From an archaeon (GTDB lineage: Archaea > Nanobdellota > Nanobdellia > Pacearchaeales > GW2011-AR1), in the NCBI GenBank assembly GCA_030636025.1, contig DAOVXQ010000001.1, positions 24,791 through 88,790 of the forward strand: a stretch of DNA of 64,000 nucleotides, given 5' to 3'. This document shows positions 10,215 through 31,805 of the stretch, in pieces. The first letter of the stretch is position 1; every line of letters begins with the position of its first letter. Under the pieces are notes generated by a model. The model was not told the origin of the DNA and made no database searches. It saw only the letters and a list, made by a program, of their open reading frames with translations. The position numbers were made by a program, and so were the translations under genes.

Positions 10215-10584
10215 TTATCACATACTCCTTATCATTTACTTCTTTTGAAATATAAGGCCATTGTGTGCATTCTATCATCACAGTATCTTCTAAAAATTTT
10301 GCCTTATGTGCAATTCTTGGCTCAATAGTTATCCTCTGACCTTTTTTTAAATTTATTTCCTGCCTTTCCTTTGTATCAATATTTTCAAAAATATATTCTG
10401 CTTCCCCATGTAATAAATAAAAAGTTTCACTATAATTGTGATAATGATTTCCAAGTATAGAACCCTCTTTTATTTTAAGTAATTTTAATTGCAAGGCAGT
10501 AAAATCCCCATTAAAAATAGGTGTCAGACTTCTTCTTTCATCTTCATGTGCTGGTTCAATTTCTTTATAATCTAATCCTTTCAT
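10207..10584 (-). CDS. Cupin-domain protein (possible NDP-keto-sugar epimerase/isomerase)
   Basis: HYHNYSETFYLLHGEA...H is a cupin two-His motif. 125 aa, lying inside the sugar operon. Confidence 0.45.
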   Translation of the reverse strand: MKGLDYKEIEPAHEDERRSLTPIFNGDFTALQLKLLKIKEGSILGNHYHNYSETFYLLHGEAEYIFENIDTKERQEINLKKGQRITIEPRIAHKAKFLEDTVMIECTQWPYISKEVNDKEYVING

Positions 10585-11138
10585 TTTAATTCTGCATATT
10601 TTTCTATTTGTGCTTTTGTTCCTCCTGTAGGCACTTCAACTAAAATTGTAGACTTATCATTATACAATGCATTTTTGTAAACAGGGATAACGTCCTCTGC
10701 CTTTCTTATTTTAATAACCTCTATGTTTTTACATATGATTTCTAAGGCATTTGTATAATCTGAACAATGTTGAATTCCAGGATATAATGGTTTTGTGTTT
10801 CCTATCTGAGTTCTCATAATCACCTTGGGATTATATTCCCCATGGCTCATTTCTTTAATTTTATCTAGGTGGTTTACTAATTGATTCATCCCACATATTA
10901 AAAAATCTATTCTTGGATAAATACTTATTGGAATATATCCCTTTAAACTTAGTCCTATTGAAATCCCCATCTGCATATCCTCTGCCACAGGCATTTCTAT
11001 TTTCTTTTCTAAAGGAACATTTTCAAGACTCATATGCATTGGACTGCCAGGATACAAAACTGTCTGACCCATAAAAATTGTTCTTTTATCTTCTGCAAGA
11101 ATTTCCATTGCTTTTTTTGTTTGTTTTTTATAATCCAT
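10581..11138 (-). CDS. Truncated TPP-enzyme E1-beta-like subunit (transketolase-like pyrimidine-binding domain only)
   Basis: MGQTVLYPGSP...PVAEDMQMGISIGLSLKGYIPI resembles E1-beta/transketolase PF02779. At 185 aa it is far shorter than canonical E1-beta (~325 aa). Confidence 0.55.
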   Translation of the reverse strand: MDYKKQTKKAMEILAEDKRTIFMGQTVLYPGSPMHMSLENVPLEKKIEMPVAEDMQMGISIGLSLKGYIPISIYPRIDFLICGMNQLVNHLDKIKEMSHGEYNPKVIMRTQIGNTKPLYPGIQHCSDYTNALEIICKNIEVIKIRKAEDVIPVYKNALYNDKSTILVEVPTGGTKAQIEKYAELK

Positions 11139-11139
11139 T

Positions 11140-11748
11140 TTAAAAATCCACCCATTTACCTATTCCATAATGGGGATATCTCCTCTCATATTCATATTTT
11201 ATTATATCTGCCCTTCCATTTTTCCAGACCTCATTTGTAGGAGTATAAACTCCAATTCCATTATCTTCGACTACAAAAGTTATTGGTAAATCTTGCCCCC
11301 CTGCATATTGCGTACATTCACTAAATGCTCCCATCTTTGAAGCCATATCTCCAACAAAACACCAAACATGCTCTCCCGAATTTTTTTGCCTTATTCCCAT
11401 TGCAGTTCCAACTGCGATAGGCAGAATCCCCCCAACAATTGCTGATGAAAATATTTTGTATTGATTGCTATTTGCATGTATGCTCCTATCTTCTAAAATT
11501 TCATTTTTTAACCACTCCGGATTTTTGCTTTTTAATAAAGCATGATAATGGCTTCTCCATGTCGAAAAAACCCAATCTTCATCTTTTACATTTTTAAAAA
11601 TTTCAATTAATTGGTCTTCATTTCCACCAGAAAGATGAATCGGACTATGTATTTTTCCAGCCTCATATAAATCCACTATTTCTTTTTCAAAATTCATCAA
11701 ATATTCTTTATCTATACTAACTTTTTCAATTAAATCTTGTTTATCCAT
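11140..11748 (-). CDS. Truncated TPP-binding E1-alpha-like subunit
   Basis: HLSGGNE, the SIHANS region (compare GGSMH) and CFVGDMASKMGAFSE...VVEDNGIG (the GDG...N TPP-binding motif). 202 aa against ~330 aa for canonical E1-alpha. Confidence 0.6.
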   Translation of the reverse strand: MDKQDLIEKVSIDKEYLMNFEKEIVDLYEAGKIHSPIHLSGGNEDQLIEIFKNVKDEDWVFSTWRSHYHALLKSKNPEWLKNEILEDRSIHANSNQYKIFSSAIVGGILPIAVGTAMGIRQKNSGEHVWCFVGDMASKMGAFSECTQYAGGQDLPITFVVEDNGIGVYTPTNEVWKNGRADIIKYEYERRYPHYGIGKWVDF

Positions 11749-11757
11749 TTTTATTAA

Positions 11758-12714
11758 TTATTTTATATTTTTTTGATACCAATTCATTGTTTTTCTTATT
11801 CCTTCTTCTAAACTAACTTTGGGTGTCCATCCAAAATCATTTTTAGCTTTAGTGCAATCAAAACATAAACTCGTTTTTATTGTCGGTTTTGAAGTATCAT
11901 ATTCTATATTAATATTCTTGCCTGAAATGTCAATCATTTTTTTAACAAGATTACTAACAGAAACAGCTTCTCCAGAACCAACATTATATAACTCATAACC
12001 TGTTTGTTGATCATCTACAGCCATACTAACAAAATCAACTAAGTCATCAATATACAAAAAATCTCTTTTTTCTTTTCCATCTCCCCAAACAACTAATTTT
12101 TCATTTTTATTATTCATAACTTTAGTAATTGTTGCTCCAAAAACATGAGATTTTTCTAAGTCAAATTTATCATAAGGCCCATAAACATTTGCCTGCCTTA
12201 TTACAGTATGTTTGGTTTTTCCTAATCTTGAAAAAAATTCACACATCTTTTCAATATAAATTTTAGTATGTCCAACCCCAAAATAATTTGGAAGAAGTTC
12301 CTGGTTGGGATTAAAATCAGTCTCCTTTAAAGGTTTTTCACTTGGTTGATACATCACAGTAGAACTTGGAAAAATAAAATGTTCAACATTATTATCAAAT
12401 GCAGACCTTAATAATAATGAGTTCATTACCGCATTATCTGTTACATGGATATAAGGTTTTGTAACAATATCTTTTGAACCAGAAGTTGTAGAAGCATCTT
12501 GGATAATTATATTTTTTCCAGCAACAATCCCTTGAACATCTTTAGAATCAAGAAGATTTGCATGAACCATCTCAACATTATCTATTTTTGGAGGTTTAGA
12601 TTTAAAATAAGTCCCAGTAACTTCAAAATTTTCTCTTTTTCCAAATCTTTCTGCAACATTTCTGCCAATAAATCCTGTTGCACCACAAACTAAAACCTTT
12701 TTTTTACTATTCAT
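11758..12714 (-). CDS. NAD-dependent epimerase/dehydratase (GDP-fucose-synthase/UDP-Glc-4-epimerase-like SDR)
   Basis: VLVCGATGFIGRNV Rossmann motif; extended SDR, 318 aa. Confidence 0.65.
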   Translation of the reverse strand: MNSKKKVLVCGATGFIGRNVAERFGKRENFEVTGTYFKSKPPKIDNVEMVHANLLDSKDVQGIVAGKNIIIQDASTTSGSKDIVTKPYIHVTDNAVMNSLLLRSAFDNNVEHFIFPSSTVMYQPSEKPLKETDFNPNQELLPNYFGVGHTKIYIEKMCEFFSRLGKTKHTVIRQANVYGPYDKFDLEKSHVFGATITKVMNNKNEKLVVWGDGKEKRDFLYIDDLVDFVSMAVDDQQTGYELYNVGSGEAVSVSNLVKKMIDISGKNINIEYDTSKPTIKTSLCFDCTKAKNDFGWTPKVSLEEGIRKTMNWYQKNIK

Positions 12715-14186
12715 TTTTTATCTCCAAGAAGTTTTCTTTTAAGATTAATTTTTGTCATCTCTTCTAAATGGGTCCTGCCCTCTTTTCCAAATTTATCTTC
12801 AATTAGTTTAAGATATCTCGGATTTTTATAGTAAGTATCAAAAGCATAATCTCTAAATTCAAGAACTTCTGCAGGACTAAGATTATCTGTTGGAAGAGGT
12901 AAAAAATTATAACCATGCTGAGAAAAATCAACCCACCTTTTAGGTAGTTCTATTCCTTGTTTAACAGAATTATCATAAAGAGGAGACCCCGGATAAGCAG
13001 TAGTGCAATACATTGTTTGCCATTCACAATTTAATTCCATTGCAAAATTAAGATTCCTTTGCATACTATCATAATTATCTCCAGGCAAACCAAACATACA
13101 GTGTCCAATAATATTTATCCCCTCATCTTTTGTTTGTTGAACCACTCGCCGTATATCTTCTTTTGTAAATTGACCTTTATTAACTTTCGCCCTGCTTTTA
13201 TCATCTCCTGTTTCTGTTCCATAAGCAAGCCAATTGAAACCTGCCTTTTTTAATTTACTTAAATATTCTTTCTTAGTTGTATCTATTCTTCCATAAGACC
13301 AGATATTTAAATCATAATTTCTTTCTATAAGCCCCTCTGCAATAGGAACAAAATGGTTTGGATTAATAATAAATAATTCATCAATAATTTTTAAATTTTT
13401 TACATCGTATTTATTTACTAAAGTATCTATTTGATCAAGAACCCATTCTGGTTTCCAATTTCTTTGTTTTCTTTCACCAAAGGTAGACCAAATTGCACAA
13501 AAATCACATGAAAAAGGACAACCCAAACTTGTAGAAATAGAAGCATAATTTGCTCTGGAATCAAAGTTTCCTAAACATTGCCAGTTGTGTGCCAAATATT
13601 TATCCATTGGTAAAAGATTCCAGGAAACTTCTCCTAACTCTTGTGTTAAGTTTTCAATATTCTTTGGTCTGGGATTTCCCCTTATTTCTTGGTTGTCTCT
13701 CCACCAAAGTCCAGGTATCTTTTTCAATGGTGCTTTTTCTAATAATCCTTGTAATGTAAGAAATCCTTCTCCTTGTCCAACATAATCACATACTTCTTCA
13801 TCCATAGTTCTTCTTGGAAGAGCAGAAGGATGCAATCCTGTAAGAATAACTTTTGTTTTAGGTGCTTCTTCCTTAATCTTTGTGCAAAGTTCACCAACCG
13901 CAGTCATTAATTGTGTTGATGCAGCGGGTTGTTGACCATATACTATGATATTAGTTAATTTAGGATTTATTAACAAAATCTTTTCAGCTGTTTCAGTATG
14001 TGTAAGATTTTCAGCATTTGCATCAATAATATTCACTCCAAAACCTTTTTTTTTAATAAATCCTGCAGTTAATGCTGCCCAAAAAGGAGGTTCAATTGCA
14101 GAATATGTTTTGCTTAAATCTTGATAAACATCTTTTTTAATTCCCCCACCAACATTTACAAGGGTTAAATCTATCTGTCTATTCAT
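12711..14186 (-). CDS. B12-binding-domain radical SAM enzyme (class B)
   Basis: N-terminal B12-binding-like domain followed by SLGCPFSCDFC (CxxxCxxC). 491 aa. Confidence 0.7.
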   Translation of the reverse strand: MNRQIDLTLVNVGGGIKKDVYQDLSKTYSAIEPPFWAALTAGFIKKKGFGVNIIDANAENLTHTETAEKILLINPKLTNIIVYGQQPAASTQLMTAVGELCTKIKEEAPKTKVILTGLHPSALPRRTMDEEVCDYVGQGEGFLTLQGLLEKAPLKKIPGLWWRDNQEIRGNPRPKNIENLTQELGEVSWNLLPMDKYLAHNWQCLGNFDSRANYASISTSLGCPFSCDFCAIWSTFGERKQRNWKPEWVLDQIDTLVNKYDVKNLKIIDELFIINPNHFVPIAEGLIERNYDLNIWSYGRIDTTKKEYLSKLKKAGFNWLAYGTETGDDKSRAKVNKGQFTKEDIRRVVQQTKDEGINIIGHCMFGLPGDNYDSMQRNLNFAMELNCEWQTMYCTTAYPGSPLYDNSVKQGIELPKRWVDFSQHGYNFLPLPTDNLSPAEVLEFRDYAFDTYYKNPRYLKLIEDKFGKEGRTHLEEMTKINLKRKLLGDKK

Positions 14187-15715: not shown

Positions 15716-17395
15716 ATGTCAAAACAGAACAGAAAACCCAAACCAAAAACACCTAAAATAAACAAAATACTTTTTGCAGAAACAGAAAATAAATATTTTT
15801 TTCTTTATCATCATTGGTATCTCCCATTAAAAAAAAGATGTAATAAGTTAATTTCATTTGATTGGAGATATAATCTCCTTATATATGGAAAAAAGGAAAT
15901 GAATAAAAGATTTCTTAAGATTATAGAAAAAGAAAAACCAGATTATGTTTTTTCATGGGCAAGGGGAGATGACACAGAACTTGAAATGTTATTAAAAATA
16001 AGAGAAATTTCTCCAAAAACAAAAACAATTCTTTTTTCAGGTGATGAAGACACGACTTTTGAAACTTTTTCAAGATATTTTATATTATTCTATGATTACG
16101 GACTAATATCTCCAAACCCTGAAAAATATATCCCAAAATATAATAAAGATGGAATAAAAAATATTTTCCCAATCATTGGAGCATTAAACACAGATTTTTT
16201 TAAACCAATAAATACTAAAAAAAAATATGATGTTACATTCATTGGTGCTTCGAGAGGAAAATTATCTAAAAGATATGAATATATTAAATTTTTAAAAGAT
16301 AATGGAATAAAAATAAAAGTATTTGGGTGGGGTTGGGACAAATATCCTAAATTAAAAGAGATTTATGGGGGCCCCTTAGAATCAGAAGAATTAGTAAAAG
16401 TCCTAAATCAAAGTAAGATAAGTTTATGTTTTTCAAAAGATGATTTTGGGAAAACAGAAGTAAAAGGAAAGCATTTTGAAACAGCAGCATGCAAAACATT
16501 TAGTTTAACAGAGTATTCTAAGGGATATTTAAAATATTTTAAGCAAAAAAAAGAGATTATTCTGTTTAAAGATAAAGAAGATTTATTAAAAAAAATAAAA
16601 TATTATCTTAAGCACAAAAAAGAAAGAGAAAGAATTGCAGAAGTAGCTTATAAAAAAATTATTAAAAATTATAATTTAGATATAGATTTAAAGAAGCTTT
16701 TTAAGGTGCAATCAAAAAAAGATTTTACTCATAAAAAACTTCCAAAAATAAATAAAAAAATTACCTCTTTATCTAAAAATGACTTAAATTTAAGTTTAGA
16801 AAAACTTAAAAACAAATTAAAAAATAAAGATTATATTATTTTAACGGATAGAAAATGTAAAAACCTCCCTTATAGAAAATATTTGCAGGCCTATTCCTTA
16901 GAAAAAACAAGAAAACCAATGAGTTGTTGTAATTATTATGTCCACTCTAAAATTTTAGGAGATTATCTGTATTTTATTACAAAAGATGCCTTTAAAAATC
17001 TCAATAAAGAAAATTTTAGTTCATTTTTAAATATAAATCAGTTTATGGTAACTAAAGATTATCTTTTAAACAATTTACAAAATTTTAAGAAAATTTTAAA
17101 TGGAAAAAAAATAGATTTTATAACTGAAAAAAATACTGCAATAATCGCCCTCCCATTGATAAGAATTAATAAAACTAAGATTAAAGATTATGAAACTATG
17201 AAAAAAGCATTTATTTTTTATTTTTTGTATAAATTATTTTCTTTAAAAATAAGAAAAAAGCCCGCCCTATTCTATTATATTTTTGCACTTTCCTTAGAAA
17301 TTCTTAGGGGAAAAAGATTTATCTTAGGGGCATTAATGAAAATATTAAAAGATAAGGATAAAAAAAATAAATTAAATAGTTATAAGAAAAAATAA
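15716..17395 (+). CDS. CgeB-like/GT1-fold glycosyltransferase with a C-terminal extension
   Basis: ISLCFSKDDFG...KHFETAACKTFSLTE...EDLLKKIKYYLKHKKERERIAEVAYKK matches the CgeB/Glyco_trans_1 C-terminal region. Confidence 0.45.
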   Translation: MSKQNRKPKPKTPKINKILFAETENKYFFLYHHWYLPLKKRCNKLISFDWRYNLLIYGKKEMNKRFLKIIEKEKPDYVFSWARGDDTELEMLLKIREISPKTKTILFSGDEDTTFETFSRYFILFYDYGLISPNPEKYIPKYNKDGIKNIFPIIGALNTDFFKPINTKKKYDVTFIGASRGKLSKRYEYIKFLKDNGIKIKVFGWGWDKYPKLKEIYGGPLESEELVKVLNQSKISLCFSKDDFGKTEVKGKHFETAACKTFSLTEYSKGYLKYFKQKKEIILFKDKEDLLKKIKYYLKHKKERERIAEVAYKKIIKNYNLDIDLKKLFKVQSKKDFTHKKLPKINKKITSLSKNDLNLSLEKLKNKLKNKDYIILTDRKCKNLPYRKYLQAYSLEKTRKPMSCCNYYVHSKILGDYLYFITKDAFKNLNKENFSSFLNINQFMVTKDYLLNNLQNFKKILNGKKIDFITEKNTAIIALPLIRINKTKIKDYETMKKAFIFYFLYKLFSLKIRKKPALFYYIFALSLEILRGKRFILGALMKILKDKDKKNKLNSYKKK

Positions 17396-18557
17396 TTTTA
17401 TTTTTTTGATGTTTTAAATTTACAATTTTTTTATAAAAATCCTCTAATTTTTTTATATTTTTACTCAATCTAAATTTTTCCTGAGCTTTTTTAACATTTT
17501 GTTGTAATTTTTCATAATTCTGTTGTTGAATAATTTTCTTAAGATTTTTTAAGTCAGAATAATCTATCAAAATACCAATTTTATTCTCTTTCACAATATC
17601 TGACATAACCTCACTCTGTCTATTTATAATTGTAGGCAATCCTGCCTCAATATAATTAAACATTTTCCCGGCCATAGATGTTTTAGGCCATATGGGATTT
17701 ATTATTGTGGCATCATAAAAATCAGGAAATATACCATAATTATATTTTGAAATTTTTTTGTTTAATTCTTCTGGTTTTTCCCTTTTATGAAAATGAAAAT
17801 ATTTATTTATTTTTTCTTCATTAAAAAACAAATTATTGTCCTTTTCCTGAACACAAGGACCATATGTATGGAAATGAATTTTTTGCGAGGTAACAGTTTT
17901 TACAATTTTTATAAATGGAATTCTACCTTCTTCAGAAGTTAAAGGCCCTCCAGGATAAATTACATGTAATTCTTTTTTTCTTTTTCCCCTTTTCGGAGGA
18001 TAAATCCATTCATCTAAACAATCTGGAGTGATTGCTAAATCTGGAACCCCTATTTTATATCTTAAAAAATTAAGTTCTCCAGAGGGACCTTTATGTAAAA
18101 CACCGTGAGCTTTTTTAAAAGATATTTTTTCAAAAATTTTCTGAAAAATCTTTTTCATCCTAAAACCTCCCGTGGTTCCTGTAGAAAATTCCCAGATATC
18201 ATAAGCAAAATATATTTTCGGCCTTTCTTTTTTTATTAAAAACATAAAAATCATAGTAAATAAATCCGGACCAGTAATATGAAAAACATAAGGATTTAAC
18301 TTCCTAATTTTCTTTAAAAAAATCCTGGCTTCTTTACTCGAAATTTTTTTAAAAAATTGAATTATCTTTTTTGGATGTATTTTATGCTCCAATTCAAAAA
18401 TAAGAATTTTATCAAATGCTTTTTTATAAAGATTTTCATCAACTTTAGAGAATGAAATAAGTGTTGTTTTATATTTCCCAGTTAATTTTAGGGCTCGTGC
18501 AAATTTTAAATTGACTATGCTTGGAACACGTTCCACAAAAACTATTTCTTTCTTCAT
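17319..18557 (-). CDS. Glycosyltransferase (GT1/GT4-fold-like)
   Basis: The C-terminal YIEAGLPTIINRQSEVMSDIVKENKIGILID is the GT-B donor-binding motif region. The start is uncertain. The gene converges on and overlaps the previous gene. Confidence 0.4.
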   Translation of the reverse strand: MKKEIVFVERVPSIVNLKFARALKLTGKYKTTLISFSKVDENLYKKAFDKILIFELEHKIHPKKIIQFFKKISSKEARIFLKKIRKLNPYVFHITGPDLFTMIFMFLIKKERPKIYFAYDIWEFSTGTTGGFRMKKIFQKIFEKISFKKAHGVLHKGPSGELNFLRYKIGVPDLAITPDCLDEWIYPPKRGKRKKELHVIYPGGPLTSEEGRIPFIKIVKTVTSQKIHFHTYGPCVQEKDNNLFFNEEKINKYFHFHKREKPEELNKKISKYNYGIFPDFYDATIINPIWPKTSMAGKMFNYIEAGLPTIINRQSEVMSDIVKENKIGILIDYSDLKNLKKIIQQQNYEKLQQNVKKAQEKFRLSKNIKKLEDFYKKIVNLKHQKNKIIFSYNYLIYFFYPYLLIFSLMPLR

Positions 18558-19465
18558 TTTACATCTCTTATTTCTACAAGGGTTGTTCCTAATTCTTCTT
18601 TATTATTTGTTTTAACCTTTACATCGCAAGGATGACATTCCCCATATTTATTACAATGCCTAAAAATATCTTCTATTTGAAAAGAAGAGTTTAATAAGTT
18701 CCCCACAGGATTTTCACTCAATAATAAATCTCTTTGACATTTATAAACCTCCCCACAAGGATTAATCAAAAGATTTGAAGTTTTGCACATACACTCTAAA
18801 TTTTTTTCACTAGAAACAGCTTCAGGATATCTAGAAGAATTTCCATGAGTTATTGCAAATTCTCTATCCAGATTGTCTTTTCCTCCATAAACACCAATAA
18901 ATGATTTTGGCCTAAAACTAATCTCTTCTTTTTTACATCTTAGTGCCATCCTTTCTAAAGATTCTAATTGAGCAGGGGAAGGATACATTATACATTCTAT
19001 TCCTATATCAAAACCTGCTTTTTTTAGTTTACTTGTATTTTCTACTAATTTTTCTCCTTCACCCATTTGTTCTGGGTGATAACTAACTCTAATTGATGGA
19101 AAAGGCGAATGATTATTTATTCTTTCTGGAGAAACTTTTTCAATAAAATTATTAATTTTAACTTTATTCCACCAAAGATTTGTAACAATGTCGATTCCCA
19201 ATTCTGGTTTAATGTTATTGATTATATAGATAAAATCTTTATGTAATGATGGCTCTCCTCCAACTAAAGACATAGGGATTTCTTTTGGAGCTTCAATTCT
19301 ATTTATTGCTCTCACCCATTGTTCTCCAGAAATTTCATTGAATTTATCTCTGTAAAAATTATTACTTGACGCCTTATTAACACAAAAACTGCAATTAAGA
19401 TTGCACCGAAAAGTAAGAAATGCAGACATATAATTATATGATTTGGGCAATGTGATTTTTCCCAT
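18554..19465 (-). CDS. Radical SAM enzyme with a C-terminal SPASM/twitch-like Cys-rich domain
   Basis: FRCNLNCSFC (CxxxCxxC) near the N-terminus. The C-terminus reads NPCGEVYKC...GNLLNSSFQIEDIF..C....C.PC. Confidence 0.6.
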   Translation of the reverse strand: MGKITLPKSYNYMSAFLTFRCNLNCSFCVNKASSNNFYRDKFNEISGEQWVRAINRIEAPKEIPMSLVGGEPSLHKDFIYIINNIKPELGIDIVTNLWWNKVKINNFIEKVSPERINNHSPFPSIRVSYHPEQMGEGEKLVENTSKLKKAGFDIGIECIMYPSPAQLESLERMALRCKKEEISFRPKSFIGVYGGKDNLDREFAITHGNSSRYPEAVSSEKNLECMCKTSNLLINPCGEVYKCQRDLLLSENPVGNLLNSSFQIEDIFRHCNKYGECHPCDVKVKTNNKEELGTTLVEIRDVK

Positions 19466-19466
19466 T

Positions 19467-20522
19467 TTAAGTAAAATTATCGTGAGGCAAAGGATATTTT
19501 ATTCTATGAAGATATCTATTTCCGGCATCACACCTGCATCCAGCCCTACAATTTTCAACCCCCTTTTCTCTTAATTTTTGTAATACTTCTTTTCTTTTAT
19601 CTCCTTCCCAAATTTCATTAAAAGAATTTTCATAAAGGTTTCCATAGGCAAATTCTGTATTTTCATAGAATAAATTACAAGGGAGAACATTTCCTTTTGA
19701 ATCAATCAAACTTATAAAGGGTAGACCATAGCATTCTGGGTAAGTAGTTTCTTCTTGTATTCTTTCCATAGTTGCTTCTCTAAATAAAACTTTAAAATCA
19801 TTATTTGAATACTTAGTCACAAGAGGTTTTAATTTATTATAGTCATCAGGATTAACAATCAAATCATTTTTACTTAATGGATGGTGAGAATAAGGTTTTA
19901 TAACTAAATAATCTGGTTTTATTTTACTTAATTTTCTTGTTAATTCTTCTGCAGTGTCTAAACTCTGAGGGATAACAAGAAATTGAGTCCCAATTGTAGC
20001 TTCTAATCCTTTTTCTTTTTTTAAATTAACAGATTCTTTTATATTATTCATTAATTTATCAAAATCTTGTTTTTTTGTTCCATGAGATTTAGAATAAACT
20101 TCTGAGTTTCCTGCATCTACACTAAATTTAACCCAAGAAAGATATGGAAGAATTTTTTCTCTTTTATCTTTATTAAAAAAAACTCCATTACTTGTTAAAG
20201 CTACATCCATTCCATATTCTTTTGACTTTTGAATAAATGTGGTTATGTCTTTATGTAGTAAGGGTTCTCCTTCCCCTCCAAACATAACAGACCTAATTTC
20301 ATGTTTTGCCATATCTTCCAGGGCATTTAACATTACATTAGAATCGATATCTGTTTTATGTTCAACCCAGTCTAATGCACAGAAAACACATTTTTGATTG
20401 CATCTGGCGGTTGCTCCAATCTCAATAGTTATCGGATAACAATCTCCAGTTTTATCCCATTGATTTACTTTATCTGGATGAAGATAAATTTTATGTCCAT
20501 CAATATCAGTTTTTGCCTTCAT
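19467..20522 (-). CDS. Radical SAM/SPASM-domain enzyme, paralog of the 22252-23376 gene
   Basis: ARCNQKCVFC. The C-terminus has PCNLF...GNLYENSFNEIWEG...C..GC.C, a SPASM-type motif. Confidence 0.6.
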   Translation of the reverse strand: MKAKTDIDGHKIYLHPDKVNQWDKTGDCYPITIEIGATARCNQKCVFCALDWVEHKTDIDSNVMLNALEDMAKHEIRSVMFGGEGEPLLHKDITTFIQKSKEYGMDVALTSNGVFFNKDKREKILPYLSWVKFSVDAGNSEVYSKSHGTKKQDFDKLMNNIKESVNLKKEKGLEATIGTQFLVIPQSLDTAEELTRKLSKIKPDYLVIKPYSHHPLSKNDLIVNPDDYNKLKPLVTKYSNNDFKVLFREATMERIQEETTYPECYGLPFISLIDSKGNVLPCNLFYENTEFAYGNLYENSFNEIWEGDKRKEVLQKLREKGVENCRAGCRCDAGNRYLHRIKYPLPHDNFT

Positions 20523-20620
20523 TTTTAATTAGTTTATAATAAATTTTTCTAACTTACCTTTTTTTATATAAGCACCATAAGCAAATGATTTAAAAAGATT
20601 ATGAAATTAAGATACATGTT

Positions 20621-21124
20621 TTAAGAAAAAATTTTTTCCTTATTGTAATTTATAAACTCTTTAACAAAATCACTTAAATTTATGTTTCTTAATTCATCTA
20701 ATCTAAAATAGCCTGCTTTTTGGCCCTCTGTTATTTTTTTATTTATATGATCTATATTCTCAAGTATCCTGCCTTTGAAAAATTGGATTTCTTCCAAAGG
20801 ACCTTTAATTCTTTTTAATTCATATGGGCCATTTATCCAGTAGTTAGCTATCCTCAAATTTCTTATTTCAACAAATCCTTTTCCTATCTGTTTTATAGAT
20901 TTAATTAGACAGCCAGGCAATTCTTCATCCAGTTCCCTTTCAATTCCTGCAAAAATATTTTCTCCTTTTTCTATGCCCCCTCCAAATAAATCCCAAGTCC
21001 CAGGTTCAATTACTTTAGGTTTATTGTCTCTTAATTGAAGTAGAAATTGGTTTTTGTTATTTAGTAATATTATTTTAGCTACATTTTTCATTTTACTCTT
21101 TGTCATATAAATCTCTCCTTTCAA
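20621..21124 (-). CDS. NUDIX hydrolase
   Basis: GGGIEKGENIFAGIERELDEELPG Nudix box. Confidence 0.6.
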   Translation of the reverse strand: MKGEIYMTKSKMKNVAKIILLNNKNQFLLQLRDNKPKVIEPGTWDLFGGGIEKGENIFAGIERELDEELPGCLIKSIKQIGKGFVEIRNLRIANYWINGPYELKRIKGPLEEIQFFKGRILENIDHINKKITEGQKAGYFRLDELRNINLSDFVKEFINYNKEKIFS

Positions 21125-21617
21125 TAATCATACAAGGTTCTTTAAATTTTTTTGCATACTCATAGGAATGTTTTAATTCATAAGTATTTTTAGGATCATA
21201 AACTGGAAAATTAAATCTTGCTTTAAAAAAATCTGAAAAATCTTGTGAATGTTGTGGTCCGGGATTAATTGGATTCATTGAGCCTATTACTGCCCTTATT
21301 ATCATTGGGGCATTATATTGTTGATTTGATAAAATAGGCAATTTATCTAAATAATTAACTAAGGAATCTAAAGCATTTAACATAAAATCATGCCTCTCAA
21401 AAATTAAAACAGGTTTAAATCCTTCTATAGCCATCCCAGTTGCTAAACCTGTCATTAAATTTTCTGCCACAGGGGATTCTAAAATTTTTGATTTTGGAAT
21501 ATCTTTTAATGAACCATATCCTTTTGAACCATGTTTTAGATTATATCCAATAAAAATTGCTTTTTCGTCCTTAGCTATTTCTTCCATCGAATTTTTTATA
21601 ATATCTTTATATTTCAT
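21093..21617 (-). CDS. Truncated E1-beta-like TPP-enzyme subunit, paralog of 10581-11138
   Basis: ESPVAENLMTGLATGMAIEGFKPVL. 174 aa. Confidence 0.55.
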   Translation of the reverse strand: MKYKDIIKNSMEEIAKDEKAIFIGYNLKHGSKGYGSLKDIPKSKILESPVAENLMTGLATGMAIEGFKPVLIFERHDFMLNALDSLVNYLDKLPILSNQQYNAPMIIRAVIGSMNPINPGPQHSQDFSDFFKARFNFPVYDPKNTYELKHSYEYAKKFKEPCMIIERRDLYDKE

Positions 21618-22241
21618 TTACATTGTACTCCCTATTTTACCTTTTGAAAAATTAACAAATTTATCTGTTCCTGCATGAAGTGTTGTTGGATTATAGTGGT
21701 ATCTTCTTACACAAGATGGCCAATTTATCTGACAAGTTCCATATCTTTCAATTTTAGTGGTTTCAACAGACCTATCATTATCCTCAATAATAAATGTGCA
21801 GGGAAGATTATGTCCTTCAACATATCTTACTGCTTCATAAAAATGCCCCTCATCCTCTGCACCATCTCCTACAAAACACCAAACTTTACTTTCACTTTTC
21901 TTTCTTTTTAATGCCCAAGCAATTCCTGTTGCAACTGCAGGAGTTCCAGCAACAATTGCAGAAGAAAGAAAGTTTATGGCTTTATTATGGGGATGCATAC
22001 TTTCTCCTTTTAATATCTTTTCTTCTAATTCTTTTGGAGACCCTCCTTTTAATAAATAATGATAATGTGAACGATGTGTAGAAAAAACATAATCTTCTGG
22101 TTGAATTTCTTTAAATATTTCTATTAATTGATTTTCATTACCTCCAGAAAGGTGAATATAATAAGGTATTTTTGCATCTTCCCATAATGTTTTTATATGT
22201 TTTTCAAAATCGATTAATTCTTGTTTAGTGACGTGTTCCAT
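21618..22241 (-). CDS. Truncated E1-alpha-like TPP-binding subunit, paralog of 11140-11748
   Basis: HLSGGNENQLIEIF, ESMHPH (compare GGSMH), CFVGDGAEDEGHFYEA...IIEDNDRS. Confidence 0.6.
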   Translation of the reverse strand: MEHVTKQELIDFEKHIKTLWEDAKIPYYIHLSGGNENQLIEIFKEIQPEDYVFSTHRSHYHYLLKGGSPKELEEKILKGESMHPHNKAINFLSSAIVAGTPAVATGIAWALKRKKSESKVWCFVGDGAEDEGHFYEAVRYVEGHNLPCTFIIEDNDRSVETTKIERYGTCQINWPSCVRRYHYNPTTLHAGTDKFVNFSKGKIGSTM

Positions 22242-22251
22242 TTTTATATTT

Positions 22252-23376
22252 TTAGATAAAATTAATGTGTTGAGGGGGTTTGCCCTCAGGTTTTGTTATG
22301 TTTAAATTATTTTCTTTTATGTCCCAAAGATATTCATTAACTTTATGTTGAAGGCAAAGGGTTCCACACATTTTTTTTGCATCAAATTTAGATGAAGAAA
22401 TTAAATCCATAACTTTATCATATCTTTTACTTTGCCAAATATCTTTAAAAGAATTTTCAGCGATATTTCCAATGTGATATTTTTTATATTTATCATTAAA
22501 TAACATCCCACAAGGAGCAACTAATCCAGAACCAGACATTTGCAATATAAATCGAGGACCATAGCATTTAGAATATTTTCTTTCCCCTCCACTCATTATT
22601 TTAGACCATTTTGCTTTAACAAGATAATCTTTTGTAGAATTAGATTCTGCTACCTGTAATATCTCCTTAAGTTCATAATATTTATTATAATCAATACCCA
22701 AGGTCCCATCTTCATCATCGCTACAATGTTTAATAACTAAATAATCTACTTTTAACTCTTTTCCTAAATTAACAAGAGGGATTATTTGATCTTTAAATTC
22801 TGGCATTAGGACCATTTGTAATCCTATTGTTGTCTCTAATTTTTTCTCTTTTTTTAATTTTGTAGTTTCTTTTACAATGTTTTTAAATTTATAAAAATCA
22901 TTTTCCCTACAACCATGAATTTCTTTATATCTTTGTGGCTCCCCGGCAGAAACATTAAACCTTAAATAAGTAAGTGCAGGAAGAATCTCCTCTAATTTTT
23001 CTTTTTTTAAAAGAACCCCATTTGTTCCTAATGCCATATCAAGCCCATTTTTTTTACCATGAATTATTGCATCATAAAGATAAGGAGAACAAGTACTTTC
23101 ACCATCACTAACAAAACTTATTGCTTTTACACCAATCTCTGCAACATCATCTAAAAATCTAAAAATTACATCCCTAGTCATTCTTTTTTCATCATTTGCC
23201 TGTAATTGCCCATAACAATAAACACATTTATAATTGCATTTTCGGGTTAATGCACAATCAATTGTTATTGGGGCTATTTTTTCTCCTTTTAACCAAGCAT
23301 TAACCCTATCTGAATGCCAGGCTAATTTTTGCCCATCTAATATTAATCCTTTTTCTTGTTCAAATTTATTTTCCAT
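22252..23376 (-). CDS. Radical SAM/SPASM-domain enzyme
   Basis: TRKCNYKCVYC. The C-terminus has PCGMLF...GNIAENSFKDIW...C..LC. Confidence 0.6.
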   Translation of the reverse strand: MENKFEQEKGLILDGQKLAWHSDRVNAWLKGEKIAPITIDCALTRKCNYKCVYCYGQLQANDEKRMTRDVIFRFLDDVAEIGVKAISFVSDGESTCSPYLYDAIIHGKKNGLDMALGTNGVLLKKEKLEEILPALTYLRFNVSAGEPQRYKEIHGCRENDFYKFKNIVKETTKLKKEKKLETTIGLQMVLMPEFKDQIIPLVNLGKELKVDYLVIKHCSDDEDGTLGIDYNKYYELKEILQVAESNSTKDYLVKAKWSKIMSGGERKYSKCYGPRFILQMSGSGLVAPCGMLFNDKYKKYHIGNIAENSFKDIWQSKRYDKVMDLISSSKFDAKKMCGTLCLQHKVNEYLWDIKENNLNITKPEGKPPQHINFI

Positions 23377-23415: not shown

Positions 23416-24393
23416 TTATATTAGGGGCTTTTCAATATATTCAAGTAATTTATTGTGAACATCATTAATACTTATTTGATTTATACAATCTCCCTCATTT
23501 TCACAAAACTCTTTAAAACAAGGGGCGCAAGAAGGATAGGGGTTTGGTAAAAGTGCCTGCCCCCTACCATAAAATTCAATCTCTAAATGAGGGGTGGGTC
23601 CAAATAAACCTAACGTTCTTTTTTTTAATGCAATTCCTAGATGTAATCCTAAACTATCATTACTAATAATTACATTACATGAATTAATCCAATCAATATA
23701 TTTTTCAAGGTTTTTTAAAACTTCTTTTGATTGTTTATTCTGCCTGGTTACCTTAAACCCTTCTTTTTTTAGTCTAATTTCTAATTTATCCCAGTTTTGA
23801 TTAGACCATGCTTTAGTTGGCCATTTTTGTCCAACCAATACATTAAGGCCTATATCATATTTTTCATTTGTTTTCGGAGAATATCCTAAAATATATTCCT
23901 CATCCTTCCAGGTCTGCCCCACCATTTCAAATAATAATTTTTGAGTTGTTTTTTTATTTATTTTTTTAGCATCTGGGTTTGAACTAACTGCAAGAACTTC
24001 TGAGGCCCGATCATATGCTTCAGCCATATTAGTTTTTTTATCAAATCTAAACCCATATTTTTTCCATGCATCAATCTTGCCAGAGAATTTACAAATATCA
24101 GGATTTTTTTCAAGATTTATAAGAGTATCAAAAGATTCTTCTAATAACTGCATTGCATATGTAAAATCAAGAGGAATCAATCTGTCAATGTGGGGATTTC
24201 TTTTAAGTAATGGCATTGCCTCCAAATCTGTAATCCATGTAACTTCCTCATTTTTATATAGATGTAACAACGGGGTTGTTCTTAGAACATCCCCTAAGCT
24301 TACTCTTCTTACTTCAGTTTTATTATCTAAAAATTCAGAATACCCTGTTTTAATTATCAACACCTTATGCCTTAACATTAATATAATTTTCAA
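23416..24393 (-). CDS. GT9-family (heptosyltransferase-like) glycosyltransferase
   Basis: KVLIIKTGYSEFLD...SLGDVLRTTPLL matches the GT9 N-terminal motif (LGDV...TP). Confidence 0.5.
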   Translation of the reverse strand: MKIILMLRHKVLIIKTGYSEFLDNKTEVRRVSLGDVLRTTPLLHLYKNEEVTWITDLEAMPLLKRNPHIDRLIPLDFTYAMQLLEESFDTLINLEKNPDICKFSGKIDAWKKYGFRFDKKTNMAEAYDRASEVLAVSSNPDAKKINKKTTQKLLFEMVGQTWKDEEYILGYSPKTNEKYDIGLNVLVGQKWPTKAWSNQNWDKLEIRLKKEGFKVTRQNKQSKEVLKNLEKYIDWINSCNVIISNDSLGLHLGIALKKRTLGLFGPTPHLEIEFYGRGQALLPNPYPSCAPCFKEFCENEGDCINQISINDVHNKLLEYIEKPLI

Positions 24394-29087: not shown

Positions 29088-30013
29088 TCTTTCCTTGCCC
29101 ATTCAATTGTTTGTTTTAATCCTTCTTTTAAACAATATTTTGGAGTCCAATCTAAAAATTTTTTAGTTTTTTTCATATCTGCGACCCAAATCTTAGAATC
29201 ATAATCTCTTTTTTTATATGCCCCCAAATTAATTTTACTTTTTGAATTTGTAATTTCTATCACATTTTTAACAACTTCTAAAACTCTTGTCTGAATCCCA
29301 ACCCCCACATTAAAAATTTCCCCCCTAAATTCATTTGCTTTTTCAATAGAGTTTAAATACAAATCCATAACATCTTCAATAAAAACAAAATCCCGCCCAA
29401 AGTCTTGATTTACAATATCAATATCCTGATGTTTCAATGCTTTTGAAATAACTGTAGGTATTAATCTATTTTTATAATCAAAAGGCCCATAAGGAGAAAA
29501 TAATCTTAAGGAAACTATTGGTTTGTTTTTTGTTTTAACCATCATTTGCCCATATTTTGTAGCAGCATTTTTTGTTATTCCATACATATTTATTGGAATA
29601 CAGACATCATCTTCTTTCATTGGTTTATTTTTTATACCATATTCCGAAGAACTCCCAGTATTGACAAAACAAGAATAATCCACAGAATTACAAGAATCAA
29701 TTAAGTTTTTAGTGCCTATAAAATTTGTTTTGAATAAATTTTCATCACTGGCCTGAACCCCCCCATATATTCCTTGTGTTGCTAAATGAAAAATAATATT
29801 TGGTTTAATTTCTTTGACAATGTAAGATAATTTTTCTTTCTCTTTTAAATCTACAACATATTCATTTAATTTTGATAAAATATTTTCTAATCTCCATTTA
29901 TTAGATGTTTTTCGAGTTAAAATATGAATCTCATAATCATTAATTAATTTTCTCACAAGATTTGAACCAACAAATCCTGTTGCTCCCGTAACAAGTATTC
30001 TTTCAATTTTCAT
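29075..30013 (-). CDS. NAD-dependent epimerase/dehydratase (extended SDR)
   Basis: ILVTGATGFVGSNLVRKL. 312 aa. Stop and start overlap the neighbouring genes. Confidence 0.65.
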   Translation of the reverse strand: MKIERILVTGATGFVGSNLVRKLINDYEIHILTRKTSNKWRLENILSKLNEYVVDLKEKEKLSYIVKEIKPNIIFHLATQGIYGGVQASDENLFKTNFIGTKNLIDSCNSVDYSCFVNTGSSSEYGIKNKPMKEDDVCIPINMYGITKNAATKYGQMMVKTKNKPIVSLRLFSPYGPFDYKNRLIPTVISKALKHQDIDIVNQDFGRDFVFIEDVMDLYLNSIEKANEFRGEIFNVGVGIQTRVLEVVKNVIEITNSKSKINLGAYKKRDYDSKIWVADMKKTKKFLDWTPKYCLKEGLKQTIEWARKDYSM

Positions 30014-31773: not shown

Positions 31774-31805
31774 CTAAAATCTCCCATTAAATCGCATTTA
31801 TAAAA

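What the first reader, a model, noticed from the sequence alone, without database searches (positions are those of the whole stretch)
18554..23376. Three paralogous SPASM/twitch-type radical SAM enzymes embedded among sugar genes with no precursor peptide
SPASM-domain radical SAM enzymes usually mature peptides (RiPPs, PQQ, anSME substrates). Three of them (303, 351 and 374 aa) sit among glycosyltransferases and NDP-sugar enzymes, and I could find no small Cys/Gly-rich precursor ORF in the flanks. The sulfatase-like protein in the island lacks the C/S-x-P-x-R motif, so these are unlikely to be anSME maturases. By analogy to BtrN, DesII and AprD4 they may act as dehydrogenases, dehydratases or epimerases on sugar substrates. 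Together with two B12-dependent class B radical SAM enzymes (4646-6100; 12711-14186) the island encodes five radical SAM enzymes.
Basis: partly seen in the sequence, partly recalled or inferred. Interest (0 to 1): 0.6.

Follow-up and report, generated by a model that had tools for sequence, protein, structure and literature searches.

The report
Sugar-tailoring radical SAM and thiamine enzyme module
Three radical SAM enzymes in an archaeal surface-glycan gene island belong to a conserved, uncharacterised module that also includes a small thiamine-dependent enzyme, is found in many anaerobic bacteria and DPANN archaea, and most likely remodels a nucleotide-activated sugar rather than a peptide.

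Summary
The three ORFs exist as described: 18554-19465, 19467-20522 and 22252-23376, all on the minus strand. All three carry CxxxCxxC. Only two are true paralogues: RS-A (374 aa) and RS-B (351 aa) share 33% identity over their full length. RS-C (303 aa) is only a remote relative.

RS-A and RS-B hit Pfam SPASM but have just four invariant C-terminal cysteines. That fits one auxiliary cluster, as in twitch domains. RS-C has five.

No precursor peptide exists. The gaps in the array are 98 nt or less, and no small ORF family is conserved across 43 related loci. The sulfatase-fold protein lacks C/S-x-P-x-R. The window holds exactly five radical SAM genes.

Across 40 related loci from both domains, a thiamine (TPP) enzyme gene lies within 6 kb of RS-A in 35. 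It lies between RS-A and RS-B in 24 of 29. Genes resembling the NDP-heptose pathway (HldE, GmhA, GmhB) often lie upstream. Fusions occur between the TPP beta subunit and RS-A, between a GT2 and RS-A, and between RS-B and a methyltransferase. The closest solved fold to RS-A is DesII, which acts on an NDP-sugar.

The exact reaction is unknown. I found no published description of this family.

The parts
23416..24393 (-). GT9 (heptosyltransferase-family) glycosyltransferase, first gene of the array
   Evidence: Pfam Glyco_transf_9, E 1.9e-12. Orthologues at 39-59% identity lie in 6 of 40 related loci, usually together with RS-C.
22252..23376 (-). RS-A: radical SAM enzyme with a C-terminal SPASM/twitch-type domain. 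C47/C51/C54 bind the SAM cluster. C271, C289, C337 and C341 are the putative ligands of one auxiliary cluster. C96 and C218 are nearly invariant.
   Evidence: Pfam Radical_SAM 59 bits and SPASM 38.5 bits. Cysteine conservation is 41/41 for the seven listed first. More than 6,600 homologue clusters were found, and the top 120 are 69-76% identical. The AF2 model has pLDDT 87.7. The best PDB fold match is DesII, E 1e-16.
21618..22241 (-). Short E1-alpha-like TPP (PP-domain) subunit, 207 aa
   Evidence: Pfam E1_dh, E 8e-20. It matches residues 55-211 of human PDH E1alpha. The sequence contains GDG...EDND, read from the translation.
21093..21617 (-). Short E1-beta-like TPP (PYR-domain) subunit, 174 aa. 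It lacks the C-terminal domain of E1beta.
   Evidence: Pfam Transket_pyr, E 4e-12. It matches residues 6-177 of 329 of PDH E1beta. Its orthologue is fused to RS-A in L011 and in P0072.
20621..21124 (-). NUDIX hydrolase. It is not a conserved member of the module.
   Evidence: Pfam NUDIX, E 1.2e-8. A NUDIX gene also follows RS-A on the Azospirillum oryzae plasmid. It was not detected in the other loci.
19467..20522 (-). RS-B: paralogue of RS-A. C41/C45/C48 form the SAM-cluster motif. C264, C282, C325 and C329 are invariant.
   Evidence: 33% identical to RS-A. Pfam Radical_SAM and SPASM. The cysteines are conserved in 30/30 orthologues. RS-B lies within 6 kb of RS-A in 29 of 40 loci. Methyltransferase fusions are P0248-P0255 and P0273.
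18554..19465 (-). RS-C: divergent radical SAM enzyme with a degenerate SPASM-like C-terminus. C21/C25/C28 form the SAM-cluster motif. C227, C243, C271, C277 and C280 are invariant.
   Evidence: Pfam Radical_SAM only. Invariant cysteines across 40 sequences. 27 of 40 family members hit SPASM. hhalign against the RS-A family gives 95.6% probability. The AF2 model has pLDDT 91.5, but only weak PDB matches were found. Present in 9 of 40 loci.
17319..18557 (-). GT-B-like glycosyltransferase. Last gene of the array; its start overlaps the end of RS-C by 4 nt.
   Evidence: Weak Glyco_trans_1_4 and galactofuranosyltransferase-like hits. Homologues are present in L007 and L011.
10581..11748 (-). Second short E1alpha/E1beta-like TPP pair (context). 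It belongs to a parallel module with a B12 radical SAM enzyme.
   Evidence: 44% and 37% identical to the pair at 21093-22241. Pfam hits.
12711..14186 (-). Class B (B12-binding) radical SAM enzyme (context)
   Evidence: Pfam B12-binding and Radical_SAM. CxxxCxxC at residue 223.
4646..6100 (+). Class B (B12-binding) radical SAM enzyme (context)
   Evidence: Pfam B12-binding and Radical_SAM. B12 radical SAM genes lie within 6 kb of RS-A in 19 of 40 loci.
30010..31773 (-). Acetolactate-synthase-type (YerE-like architecture) TPP enzyme (context)
   Evidence: Pfam TPP_enzyme_N/M/C. Below every acetolactate synthase cutoff. A homologue sits between RS-B and RS-A in Pacearchaeota locus L007.
36896..39694 (-). 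AglB/STT3 oligosaccharyltransferase. It marks the island as an archaeal protein-glycosylation locus (context).
   Evidence: Pfam STT3 and STT3-PglB_core. NCBIfam archaeo_STT3, E 1e-25.

Best explanation
The three genes are glycan-precursor tailoring enzymes in an archaeal (DPANN-type) surface and N-glycosylation island. They are not peptide maturases.

RS-A and RS-B form a conserved pair that works with the small two-subunit TPP enzyme encoded between them.

Proposed sequence of events, all inferred:
1. An NDP-activated sugar is the substrate. In most bacterial carriers this is an NDP-heptose made by adjacent GmhA-, HldE- and GmhB-like genes.
2. One twitch-type radical SAM enzyme abstracts a hydrogen atom from it with 5'-deoxyadenosyl radical.
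3. Its fully cysteine-ligated auxiliary [4Fe-4S] cluster removes the electron, or a DesII/AprD4-like elimination follows. Either way a keto-sugar results.
4. The TPP alpha/beta enzyme adds a two-carbon unit from pyruvate or a ketol donor to that carbonyl. AviB1/AviB2 and YerE do this in known branched-sugar pathways.
5. The second radical SAM enzyme carries out a further radical step. RS-A has two nearly invariant extra cysteines, C96 and C218, which could act as hydrogen-atom donors, so this step could be an epimerisation or a redox-neutral rearrangement.
6. RS-C, which travels with the GT9 gene, adds a further modification.
7. GT9, GT2 and GT-B enzymes transfer the product into the glycan.

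What is shown: gene content, cysteine patterns, conserved synteny, fusions and fold similarity. What is inferred: substrate identity, reaction types and their order.
For: (1) All three proteins have CxxxCxxC and Radical_SAM hits. RS-A and RS-B have four invariant C-terminal cysteines, spaced C-x17-C...C-x3-C, in 41/41 and 30/30 orthologues. From my own knowledge, this is the same number and a similar spacing to the single auxiliary cluster of BtrN.

(2) No precursor peptide is present. Gaps are 98 nt or less, there is no intergenic small ORF, and no small ORF family is conserved in 43 loci.

(3) Synteny across 40 loci is conserved. The loci come from Pacearchaeota, Woesearchaeota, Patescibacteria, Omnitrophota, Desulfobacterales, Nitrospirota, Planctomycetes, Leptospirales, Lachnospiraceae, Veillonellaceae and Kiritimatiellae. 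A TPP gene lies within 6 kb of RS-A in 35 of 40. RS-B lies within 6 kb in 29 of 40. A TPP gene lies between the two in 24 of 29. GT2 is present in 21, B12 radical SAM in 19 and HldE-like in 15. SIS and HAD neighbours were identified by Pfam.

(4) The TPP enzyme is replaced by non-orthologous types: E1 alpha/beta, split transketolase-like, or ALS-type in L007 and L041. This mirrors the known equivalence of AviB1/AviB2 and YerE for installing a C-acetyl branch (PMC4753412; PMC8234114).

(5) Fusions exist: E1beta-RS-A in L011 and P0072, GT2-RS-A in P0013, and RS-B with a class I methyltransferase.

(6) The RS-A model (pLDDT 87.7) matches DesII best, at E 1e-16 and TMq 0.63-0.70. The next family is four orders of magnitude weaker. 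BlsE and viperin also rank among the matches. DesII has the same layout: an N-terminal helical part, a radical SAM core, and a C-terminal beta-hairpin plus helices (PMC11434129).

(7) The island carries AglB, an AglH-like transferase, GtrA, a GT-C enzyme, DegT and SDRs. The ribosomal proteins are of archaeal type.

(8) The cultured carrier Azospirillum oryzae has SDR, PfkB kinase, SIS, SDR, E1alpha, E1beta, DegT x2, RS-A, NUDIX and then GT4 genes in one block.
Against: No enzyme of these three families has been characterised, so the chemistry rests on analogy.

This window, and the closest archaeal loci L007 and L011, contain no GmhA, HldE or GmhB genes. The substrate in this archaeon may therefore not be a heptose.

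All NCBIfam hits are far below cutoff: DesII 27 bits against 450, and the best hit, TIGR04317, 95 bits against 380. Fold similarity to DesII could reflect the shared architecture only.

The tight coupling and fusion of RS-A with a GT2 leaves open a substrate that is lipid-linked rather than nucleotide-linked.

The TPP pair could serve another role, such as precursor supply or electron supply.
Confidence: 0.7

Rival explanations
1. The radical SAM enzymes act after glycosyl transfer, on a polyprenyl-phosphate-linked sugar or on the assembled glycan, rather than on the soluble NDP-sugar.
For: A DPM1/GtrB-like GT2 lies within 6 kb of RS-A in 21 of 40 loci; where I checked, it sits directly upstream, overlapping RS-A by 4 nt in L001 and fused to it in P0013. 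Two small membrane proteins follow RS-A in 7 loci. The window has GtrA and a PMT_2 GT-C enzyme.
Against: RS-A, RS-B and RS-C have no predicted membrane segments in their models. The nearest solved fold acts on a soluble TDP-sugar. In this window no GT2 is adjacent to RS-A.
Confidence: 0.15
2. They are peptide or protein maturases: RiPP enzymes, or anSME-like maturases of the sulfatase-fold proteins in the island.
For: SPASM-domain enzymes are most often peptide-modifying. SuiB, SkfB, anSME and CteB appear among the fold matches. Sulfatase-fold genes lie at 1153-2532 and 6151-7569.
Against: There is no small ORF and no conserved peptide family. Pfam found no RRE/PqqD domain. The sulfatase-fold proteins lack C/S-x-P-x-R. 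No sulfatase-fold family appears among the gene families that recur across the related loci. There are only 4 auxiliary cysteines, not the 7-8 of anSME-type SPASM. All RiPP-maturase NCBIfam models score far below cutoff.
Confidence: 0.03
3. RS-A serves the TPP enzyme rather than the sugar. Either it activates or matures the TPP protein, or the TPP enzyme oxidises pyruvate to supply low-potential electrons that reduce the radical SAM clusters.
For: E1beta-RS-A fusions exist. A TPP gene lies between RS-A and RS-B in 24 of 29 loci. The best NCBIfam hit is a metalloenzyme cofactor maturase family, TIGR04317.
Against: The TPP partner is exchanged among three unrelated architectures: E1, transketolase-like and ALS-like. 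That argues against a protein-specific maturation. E1-type and transketolase-type enzymes lack a redox cofactor to pass electrons on. This point rests on established knowledge, not on a test here. The TIGR04317 score is 95 against a cutoff of 380.
Confidence: 0.07
4. They modify the nucleotide part of a nucleotide or nucleotide-sugar, as viperin does, with the NUDIX hydrolase processing the product.
For: Prokaryotic viperin is among the better NCBIfam hits, at 56-67 bits. Viperin structures appear among the fold matches. NUDIX genes lie in the array here and next to RS-A in Azospirillum.
Against: The viperin cutoff of 180 bits is not met. Viperin has no auxiliary cluster (my own knowledge). 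NUDIX was not detected in the other loci. The neighbourhood is dominated by glycosyltransferases and sugar enzymes.
Confidence: 0.05

Closest known systems
DesII (TDP-4-amino-4,6-dideoxy-D-glucose deaminase/dehydrogenase, desosamine pathway)
   Same: [quoted passage not shown] It is the best solved fold match to the RS-A model (E 1e-16, TMq up to 0.70). It shares the layout of N-terminal helices, radical SAM core and C-terminal beta-hairpin plus helices. DegT aminotransferases, which resemble DesI, are present in the island and next to RS-A in Azospirillum.
   Different: DesII has a single [4Fe-4S] cluster. RS-A has four extra invariant cysteines. Sequence identity is about 15%. The TIGR04426 score is 27 bits against a cutoff of 450. 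RS-A is about 100 residues shorter.
BtrN (2-deoxy-scyllo-inosamine dehydrogenase; the founding twitch-domain enzyme)
   Same: It carries one auxiliary cluster bound by four cysteines in an abridged SPASM domain. It oxidises a secondary alcohol of a carbohydrate-like substrate. RS-B gives its best PDB sequence hit to BtrN (E 6e-8).
   Different: That match covers only residues 33-136. The fold match to RS-A is poor (TMq 0.31). BtrN acts on a free aminocyclitol, not a nucleotide sugar, and is not linked to a TPP enzyme (my own knowledge).
AviB1/AviB2 with AviX12 (avilamycin), and YerE (yersiniose)
   Same: An E1 alpha/beta-like TPP pair, or a single ALS-like TPP enzyme, installs a two-carbon branch from pyruvate on a keto-sugar. 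A radical SAM sugar epimerase, AviX12, is encoded in the same cluster. Both TPP architectures occur interchangeably in the RS-A/RS-B module.
   Different: The TPP subunits here are truncated to the PP and PYR domains (207 and 174 aa). They are flanked by two radical SAM enzymes and sometimes fused to one. Sequence relatedness to AviB1, AviB2 and AviX12 was not tested. Those pathways are actinomycete antibiotic pathways or Yersinia O-antigen pathways, not cross-domain glycan modules.
anSME (anaerobic sulfatase-maturating enzyme)
   Same: It combines a radical SAM core with a SPASM domain, has a comparable length, and is a moderate fold match (E 5e-11).
   Different: anSME has two auxiliary clusters with 7-8 cysteines and acts on a C/S-x-P-x-R peptide (my own knowledge). 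Here there are only four cysteines, and no such motif occurs in the sulfatase-fold proteins.

Membership tests
Radical SAM superfamily | CxxxCxxC motif and a PF04055 score above the gathering cutoff | tested here: met
   All three proteins meet both: motifs at residues 21, 41 and 47, and scores of 38.6, 59.6 and 59.2 bits against a cutoff of 29.5.
SPASM domain (two auxiliary clusters) | PF13186 hit above cutoff | tested here: met
   RS-A scores 38.5 bits and RS-B 39.5 bits against a cutoff of 21.5. RS-C itself has no hit at E <= 0.1, but 27 of 40 of its family members do.
SPASM domain (two auxiliary clusters) | Seven-cysteine motif CX9-15GX4C...CX2CX5CX3C...C sufficient for two clusters | tested here: not met
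   RS-A has only C271, C289, C337 and C341 invariant. RS-B has only C264, C282, C325 and C329. RS-C has five: C227, C243, C271, C277 and C280.
Twitch subclass (one auxiliary cluster) | Abridged SPASM with 3-4 conserved cysteines placed on the beta-hairpin and the following helix | tested here: met
   There are four invariant cysteines. The model shows strands 277-280 and 285-287 followed by helices. Actual cluster binding cannot be tested with these tools.
RiPP radical SAM maturases | Adjacent precursor peptide gene and/or an RRE (PqqD-like) domain | tested here: not met
   No intergenic small ORF and no conserved small ORF family. No PqqD/RRE Pfam hit. RiPP-maturase NCBIfam models score 24-62 bits against cutoffs of 265-650.
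anSME | A cognate sulfatase with the C/S-x-P-x-R motif | tested here: not met
   A regex search finds no such motif in either sulfatase-fold or phosphodiesterase protein.
DesII (TIGR04426) | Equivalog model score at or above 450 bits | tested here: not met
   RS-A scores 26.9 bits. There is fold resemblance only.
Tungsten-cofactor oxidoreductase maturase (TIGR04317) | Equivalog model score at or above 380 bits | tested here: not met
   RS-A scores 95.6 bits and RS-B 95.4 bits. No aldehyde:ferredoxin oxidoreductase gene turned up in the neighbourhoods.
Two-carbon branching TPP enzymes (AviB1/AviB2 type) | An E1 alpha/beta-like pair with TPP-binding PP and PYR domains, encoded in a sugar pathway and not part of a 2-oxoacid dehydrogenase complex | tested here: met
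   E1_dh and Transket_pyr hits. The beta subunit lacks the C-terminal domain. No E2 or E3 gene turned up in the island ORFs scanned against Pfam. Direct comparison with the AviB1 and AviB2 sequences was not done.
NDP-heptose pathway association | GmhA (SIS), HldE-like kinase/nucleotidyltransferase and GmhB (HAD) genes adjacent | tested here: inconclusive
   These are present in related bacterial loci: HldE-like in 15, SIS in 9 and HAD in 3 of 40. They are absent from this window and, by gene-family clustering, from the nearest archaeal loci L007 and L011.

The most novel reading that the evidence does not exclude
The block RS-B, TPP alpha/beta, RS-A is a previously undescribed biosynthetic module shared across domains. 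It would couple radical SAM chemistry to thiamine-dependent carboligation to build a two-carbon-extended or branched higher sugar, for example a C9 derivative of an NDP-heptose. This sugar would be displayed on the surfaces of many anaerobic bacteria, CPR bacteria and DPANN archaea. RS-A would be one of the most strongly conserved glycan-tailoring enzymes known, with median identity of 69% between domains.
Probability: 0.3. Interest if true: 0.75.

Novelty: new variant of a known kind. Interest (0 to 1): 0.55.

Why it matters
Radical SAM enzymes that tailor sugars are known from a handful of antibiotic pathways: BtrN, DesII, AprD4, AviX12 and BlsE. This finding points to an uncharacterised family pair with more than 6,600 sequence clusters. 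It is spread by horizontal transfer through surface-glycan loci of anaerobes from both domains and is almost always coupled to a TPP enzyme.

Working out its product would reveal a new, probably widespread, sugar on the surfaces of uncultured CPR and DPANN cells and of gut Lachnospiraceae and Veillonellaceae. Those surfaces mediate attachment to hosts.

It would also show whether radical and thiamine chemistry are combined for C-C bond formation on sugars. Cultured carriers such as Azospirillum oryzae make the question testable.

Tried and rejected
- Literature: six full-text searches found no paper describing this family or module. The terms combined radical SAM with SPASM, nucleotide sugar, thiamine, heptose, twitch, epimerase, AglB and DPANN. 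Hits on pelagiphage cassettes and Campylobacter HS:19 were unrelated.
- Rfam and tRNA scans of the window found nothing.
- Phage collection: only distant relatives at 24-25% identity.
- Plasmid collection: one good cultured example, Azospirillum oryzae at 58% identity. A more distant one is in a Solidesulfovibrio locus that also encodes an MptE-like protein, a family I know from memory as flagellin-glycosylation (Maf) factors.
- The 360-aa hypothetical protein next to RS-A in Azospirillum is not an RS-B homologue.
Scores against NCBIfam equivalog models and PDB sequence and fold searches were used instead.
- Cysteine-to-cysteine distances in the models could not be measured, because coordinates are not exposed.
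- The organism name and the rest of the 162,868-bp contig were not retrievable. B12 uptake or salvage therefore could not be checked.

Full report
**Observation**

The three ORFs are real and sit at the stated coordinates on the minus strand: RS-C at 18554-19465 (303 aa), RS-B at 19467-20522 (351 aa) and RS-A at 22252-23376 (374 aa). Each carries a CxxxCxxC motif, at residues 21, 41 and 47. Each has a Pfam Radical_SAM hit above cutoff.

They belong to a tightly packed, co-directional eight-gene array. The order is GT9 (23416-24393), RS-A, a 207-aa E1alpha-like TPP subunit (21618-22241), a 174-aa E1beta-like subunit (21093-21617), a NUDIX hydrolase (20621-21124), RS-B, RS-C and a GT-B-like transferase (17319-18557). 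The gaps between them are 39, 10, 0, -32, 98, 1 and -4 nt.

The window contains exactly five ORFs with CxxxCxxC. They are these three plus the two B12-binding class B enzymes at 4646-6100 and 12711-14186.

The window is archaeal. Ribosomal proteins L3 and L4 and SecY are of archaeal type, and an AglB/STT3 gene lies at 36896-39694. G+C is 25-33%. Roughly the first 40 kb form a glycosylation island. It holds many glycosyltransferases, SDR epimerases or dehydratases, DegT, GtrA, a GT-C enzyme and an AglH-like transferase.

**What was over-stated**

'Three paralogous' is only partly right. RS-A and RS-B are genuine paralogues, at 33% identity over 344 residues with E 4e-50. RS-C matches them by BLAST only around the cluster-binding core. 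It is a remote relative at profile level: hhalign probability is 95.6% and E is 1.2e-8. That alignment runs from the CxxxCxxC through the first two auxiliary cysteines and the GN(I/L) motif.

**Auxiliary-cluster cysteines**

In 41 RS-A orthologues the invariant cysteines are C47, C51, C54, C271, C289, C337 and C341. C96 and C218 are conserved in 40 of 41, and C41 in 38 of 41. In 30 RS-B orthologues the invariant set is C41, C45, C48, C264, C282, C325 and C329.

So both proteins hit Pfam SPASM yet have only four C-terminal cysteines, spaced C-x17-C...C-x3-C. That is enough for one fully ligated auxiliary cluster. From my own knowledge this is the twitch pattern, as in BtrN. It is not the 7-8 cysteines of a two-cluster SPASM domain.

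RS-C has five invariant C-terminal cysteines: C227, C243, C271, C277 and C280. Its own sequence gives no SPASM hit, but 27 of 40 family members do at E <= 0.1.

**No peptide, no sulfatase substrate**

Every small ORF between 17.3 and 24.5 kb lies inside a larger gene. A script found no intergenic small ORF between 15 and 26 kb. It found no small ORF family shared among 43 related loci. Neither the sulfatase-fold protein (6151-7569) nor the phosphodiesterase (1153-2532) contains C/S-x-P-x-R. No RRE/PqqD domain was detected.

**Family and distribution**

RS-A has more than 6,600 homologue clusters at E <= 1e-5. The top 120 are 69-76% identical and about 367 aa long.

A scan of species-representative genomes found it in Pacearchaeota, Woesearchaeota, Patescibacteria, Omnitrophota, Desulfobacterales, Nitrospirota, Nitrospinota, Planctomycetes, Leptospirales, Elusimicrobia, Kiritimatiellae, Lachnospiraceae and Veillonellaceae. 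Identity to the window protein is 61-76%. A cultured carrier is Azospirillum oryzae, on a plasmid, at 58%.

Median pairwise identity among 41 orthologues from both domains is 69%. The figure is 43% for RS-B and 46% for RS-C. In a library clustered at 50% identity, only 230 representatives reach E <= 1e-30. The RS-A orthologues are therefore a tight family.

None of the three reaches the cutoff of any NCBIfam model. The best is TIGR04317 at 95 bits against 380. DesII scores 27 against 450, and PqqE, NirJ, MoaA, viperin and RiPP maturases are all far below their cutoffs. No source gives these proteins a specific name.

**Conserved neighbourhood**

I called ORFs in all loci, clustered them, labelled the clusters with Pfam and counted neighbours within 6 kb of RS-A in 40 loci.

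| Neighbour | Loci (of 40 unless stated) |
|---|---|
| TPP enzyme gene | 35 |
| RS-B | 29 |
| TPP gene lying between RS-A and RS-B | 24 of 29 |
| DPM1/GtrB-like GT2 | 21 |
| B12 radical SAM | 19 |
| HldE-like (cytidylyltransferase-like + PfkB kinase) | 15 |
| SDR | 11 |
| SIS (GmhA-like) | 9 |
| RS-C | 9 |
| GT9 | 6 |
| HAD (GmhB-like) | 3 |

The typical order is HldE, SIS, SDR, RS-B, TPP-alpha, TPP-beta, GT2, RS-A.

The TPP partner varies in architecture. It can be full-length E1 alpha/beta, a split transketolase-like pair, or the short E1 alpha/beta pair seen in this window. In Pacearchaeota L007 and Kiritimatiellae L041 it is a single acetolactate-synthase-type enzyme. The window also encodes that ALS type at 30010-31773. 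It further encodes a second short E1 pair at 10581-11748, which is 44% and 37% identical to the first pair and sits next to a B12 radical SAM enzyme.

Natural fusions tie the parts together:
- E1beta-RS-A, in Woesearchaeota L011 (547 aa) and in P0072 (546 aa). The two are 72% identical to each other, so they are independent sequences.
- GT2-RS-A, in P0013.
- RS-B fused to a class I methyltransferase, in P0248-P0255 and P0273.

**Structure**

The AlphaFold model of RS-A has pLDDT 87.7 and pTM 0.88. Its best match in the PDB is DesII, the TDP-sugar deaminase/dehydrogenase, at E 1e-16 and TMq 0.63-0.70. The next groups are SuiB, SkfB and anSME at about 1e-11, then BlsE (TMt 0.74), viperin and MoaA. 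BtrN matches only weakly.

The DesII paper describes an N-terminal helical domain, the radical SAM core, and a C-terminal beta-hairpin with two helices, plus a single cluster (PMC11434129). RS-A has the same C-terminal elements but adds four cysteines.

RS-C models confidently (pLDDT 91.5) but has only weak PDB matches: DesII at 7e-6, anSME at 1.5e-5 and NifB at 3e-4. It is structurally the most distant of the three from anything solved.

The short TPP subunits cover only the PP domain of E1alpha (residues 55-211 of 365) and the PYR domain of E1beta (residues 6-177 of 329). The beta subunit thus lacks the C-terminal domain of E1beta, which, from my own knowledge, is the part that docks E1 onto the E2 core. 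No E2 or E3 gene turned up in the island ORFs scanned against Pfam.

**Interpretation**

It is shown that these are radical SAM enzymes with one probable auxiliary cluster. It is shown that they have no peptide partner. It is shown that they are embedded in, and sometimes fused to, sugar-pathway enzymes in a module conserved across domains.

It is inferred that they tailor a nucleotide-activated sugar. In many bacterial carriers the adjacent GmhA-, HldE-, GmhB- and SDR-like genes point to an NDP-heptose.

The established precedent is that E1-like AviB1/AviB2 and ALS-like YerE both add a pyruvate-derived two-carbon unit to a keto-sugar (PMC4753412; PMC8234114). This explains why unrelated TPP architectures can replace each other in the module.

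The most economical scheme has three steps. One twitch enzyme creates the carbonyl, either by BtrN-like dehydrogenation or by DesII/AprD4-like elimination. The TPP pair adds C2. The second radical SAM enzyme performs a further radical step. The two nearly invariant extra cysteines of RS-A, C96 just after the GGE-equivalent SDGE motif and C218 just after the strand at residues 212-217, are candidates for a hydrogen-atom donor. Radical SAM epimerases use such a donor (my own knowledge).

The order and type of reactions are not established.

**Caveats**

This window and the nearest archaeal loci lack the heptose-activation genes. The substrate in this archaeon may therefore differ, or those genes may lie elsewhere in the genome.

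The GT2 coupling leaves open a lipid-linked substrate.

The NUDIX gene was not detected in the other loci. It recurs only on the Azospirillum plasmid.

**Novelty**

Sugar-acting twitch-type radical SAM enzymes are a known kind. This family pair, its obligatory TPP partner and its cross-domain spread appear undescribed in the searchable literature. Subscription-only papers were not searchable.

I rate it a new variant of a known kind. Interest is moderate to good.

Noticed in passing
window 1153-7569: A possible phospho-substituent decoration module. It comprises a type I phosphodiesterase/NPP (1153-2532, minus strand) and a fusion of a sugar-1-P nucleotidyltransferase with an archaeal ApgM-type phosphoglycerate mutase (2673-4649). 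The fusion scores 359 bits on apgM, above the cutoff of 320, and has a weak PhpG-like hit. The module also has a B12 radical SAM gene overlapping by 4 nt (4646-6100) and a sulfatase-fold protein without the CxPxR motif but with partial EptA-like hits (6151-7569).
   Followed up: partly
window 8365-14186 (minus strand): A second, parallel sugar module: B12 radical SAM, SDR, short E1alpha/E1beta pair (44% and 37% identical to the pair at 21093-22241), cupin, NUDIX, GDP-mannose-dehydratase-like SDR and a 166-aa ORF with no Pfam hit. This is the same TPP-plus-radical-SAM logic, but with a class B enzyme instead of a twitch-type one.
   Followed up: partly
window 29075-33869; L007 8205-9983: A third TPP enzyme, of acetolactate-synthase/YerE-like architecture (30010-31773; below all acetolactate synthase cutoffs). 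It lies beside an SDR, a GT2 and a DegT aminotransferase. Its homologue replaces the split E1 pair between RS-B and RS-A in Pacearchaeota locus L007.
   Followed up: partly
L011 9467-11110; P0072; P0013; P0248-P0255, P0273: Natural gene fusions: E1beta-like TPP subunit with RS-A (two independent archaeal sequences, 72% identical to each other), GT2 with RS-A, and RS-B with a class I SAM methyltransferase.
   Followed up: yes
L001 9763-10791, L004 9118-10163 and five other loci: Two adjacent membrane proteins of about 170 aa with no Pfam hit follow RS-A in 7 loci, often with an AP_endonuc_2 (xylose-isomerase-like TIM barrel) gene. They are absent from the window. They could be a flippase pair for a lipid-linked sugar.
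   Followed up: partly
RS-A orthologues in L001-L045: RS-A is unusually conserved for a glycan-locus gene. Median pairwise identity is 69% across archaea and many bacterial phyla, against 43% for RS-B in the same loci. This implies strong constraint together with frequent horizontal transfer.
   Followed up: partly
L047 (Solidesulfovibrio carbinolicus pDCAR1, 101180-126238): A more distant RS-A/B relative (40% identity) lies in a locus with a protein annotated as MptE-like, a TIGR04372 glycosyltransferase, several methyltransferases and cobalamin-dependent radical SAM enzymes. I know MptE-like proteins from memory as flagellin-glycosylation (Maf) factors, so related enzymes may serve flagellin glycosylation.
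   Followed up: no
window 15716-17395 (+) and 17319-18557 (-): Two convergent glycosyltransferase ORFs overlap by 77 nt at their 3' ends as called from the first start codon to the stop. The C-terminal roughly 60 residues of both are hydrophobic and low-complexity.
   Followed up: no
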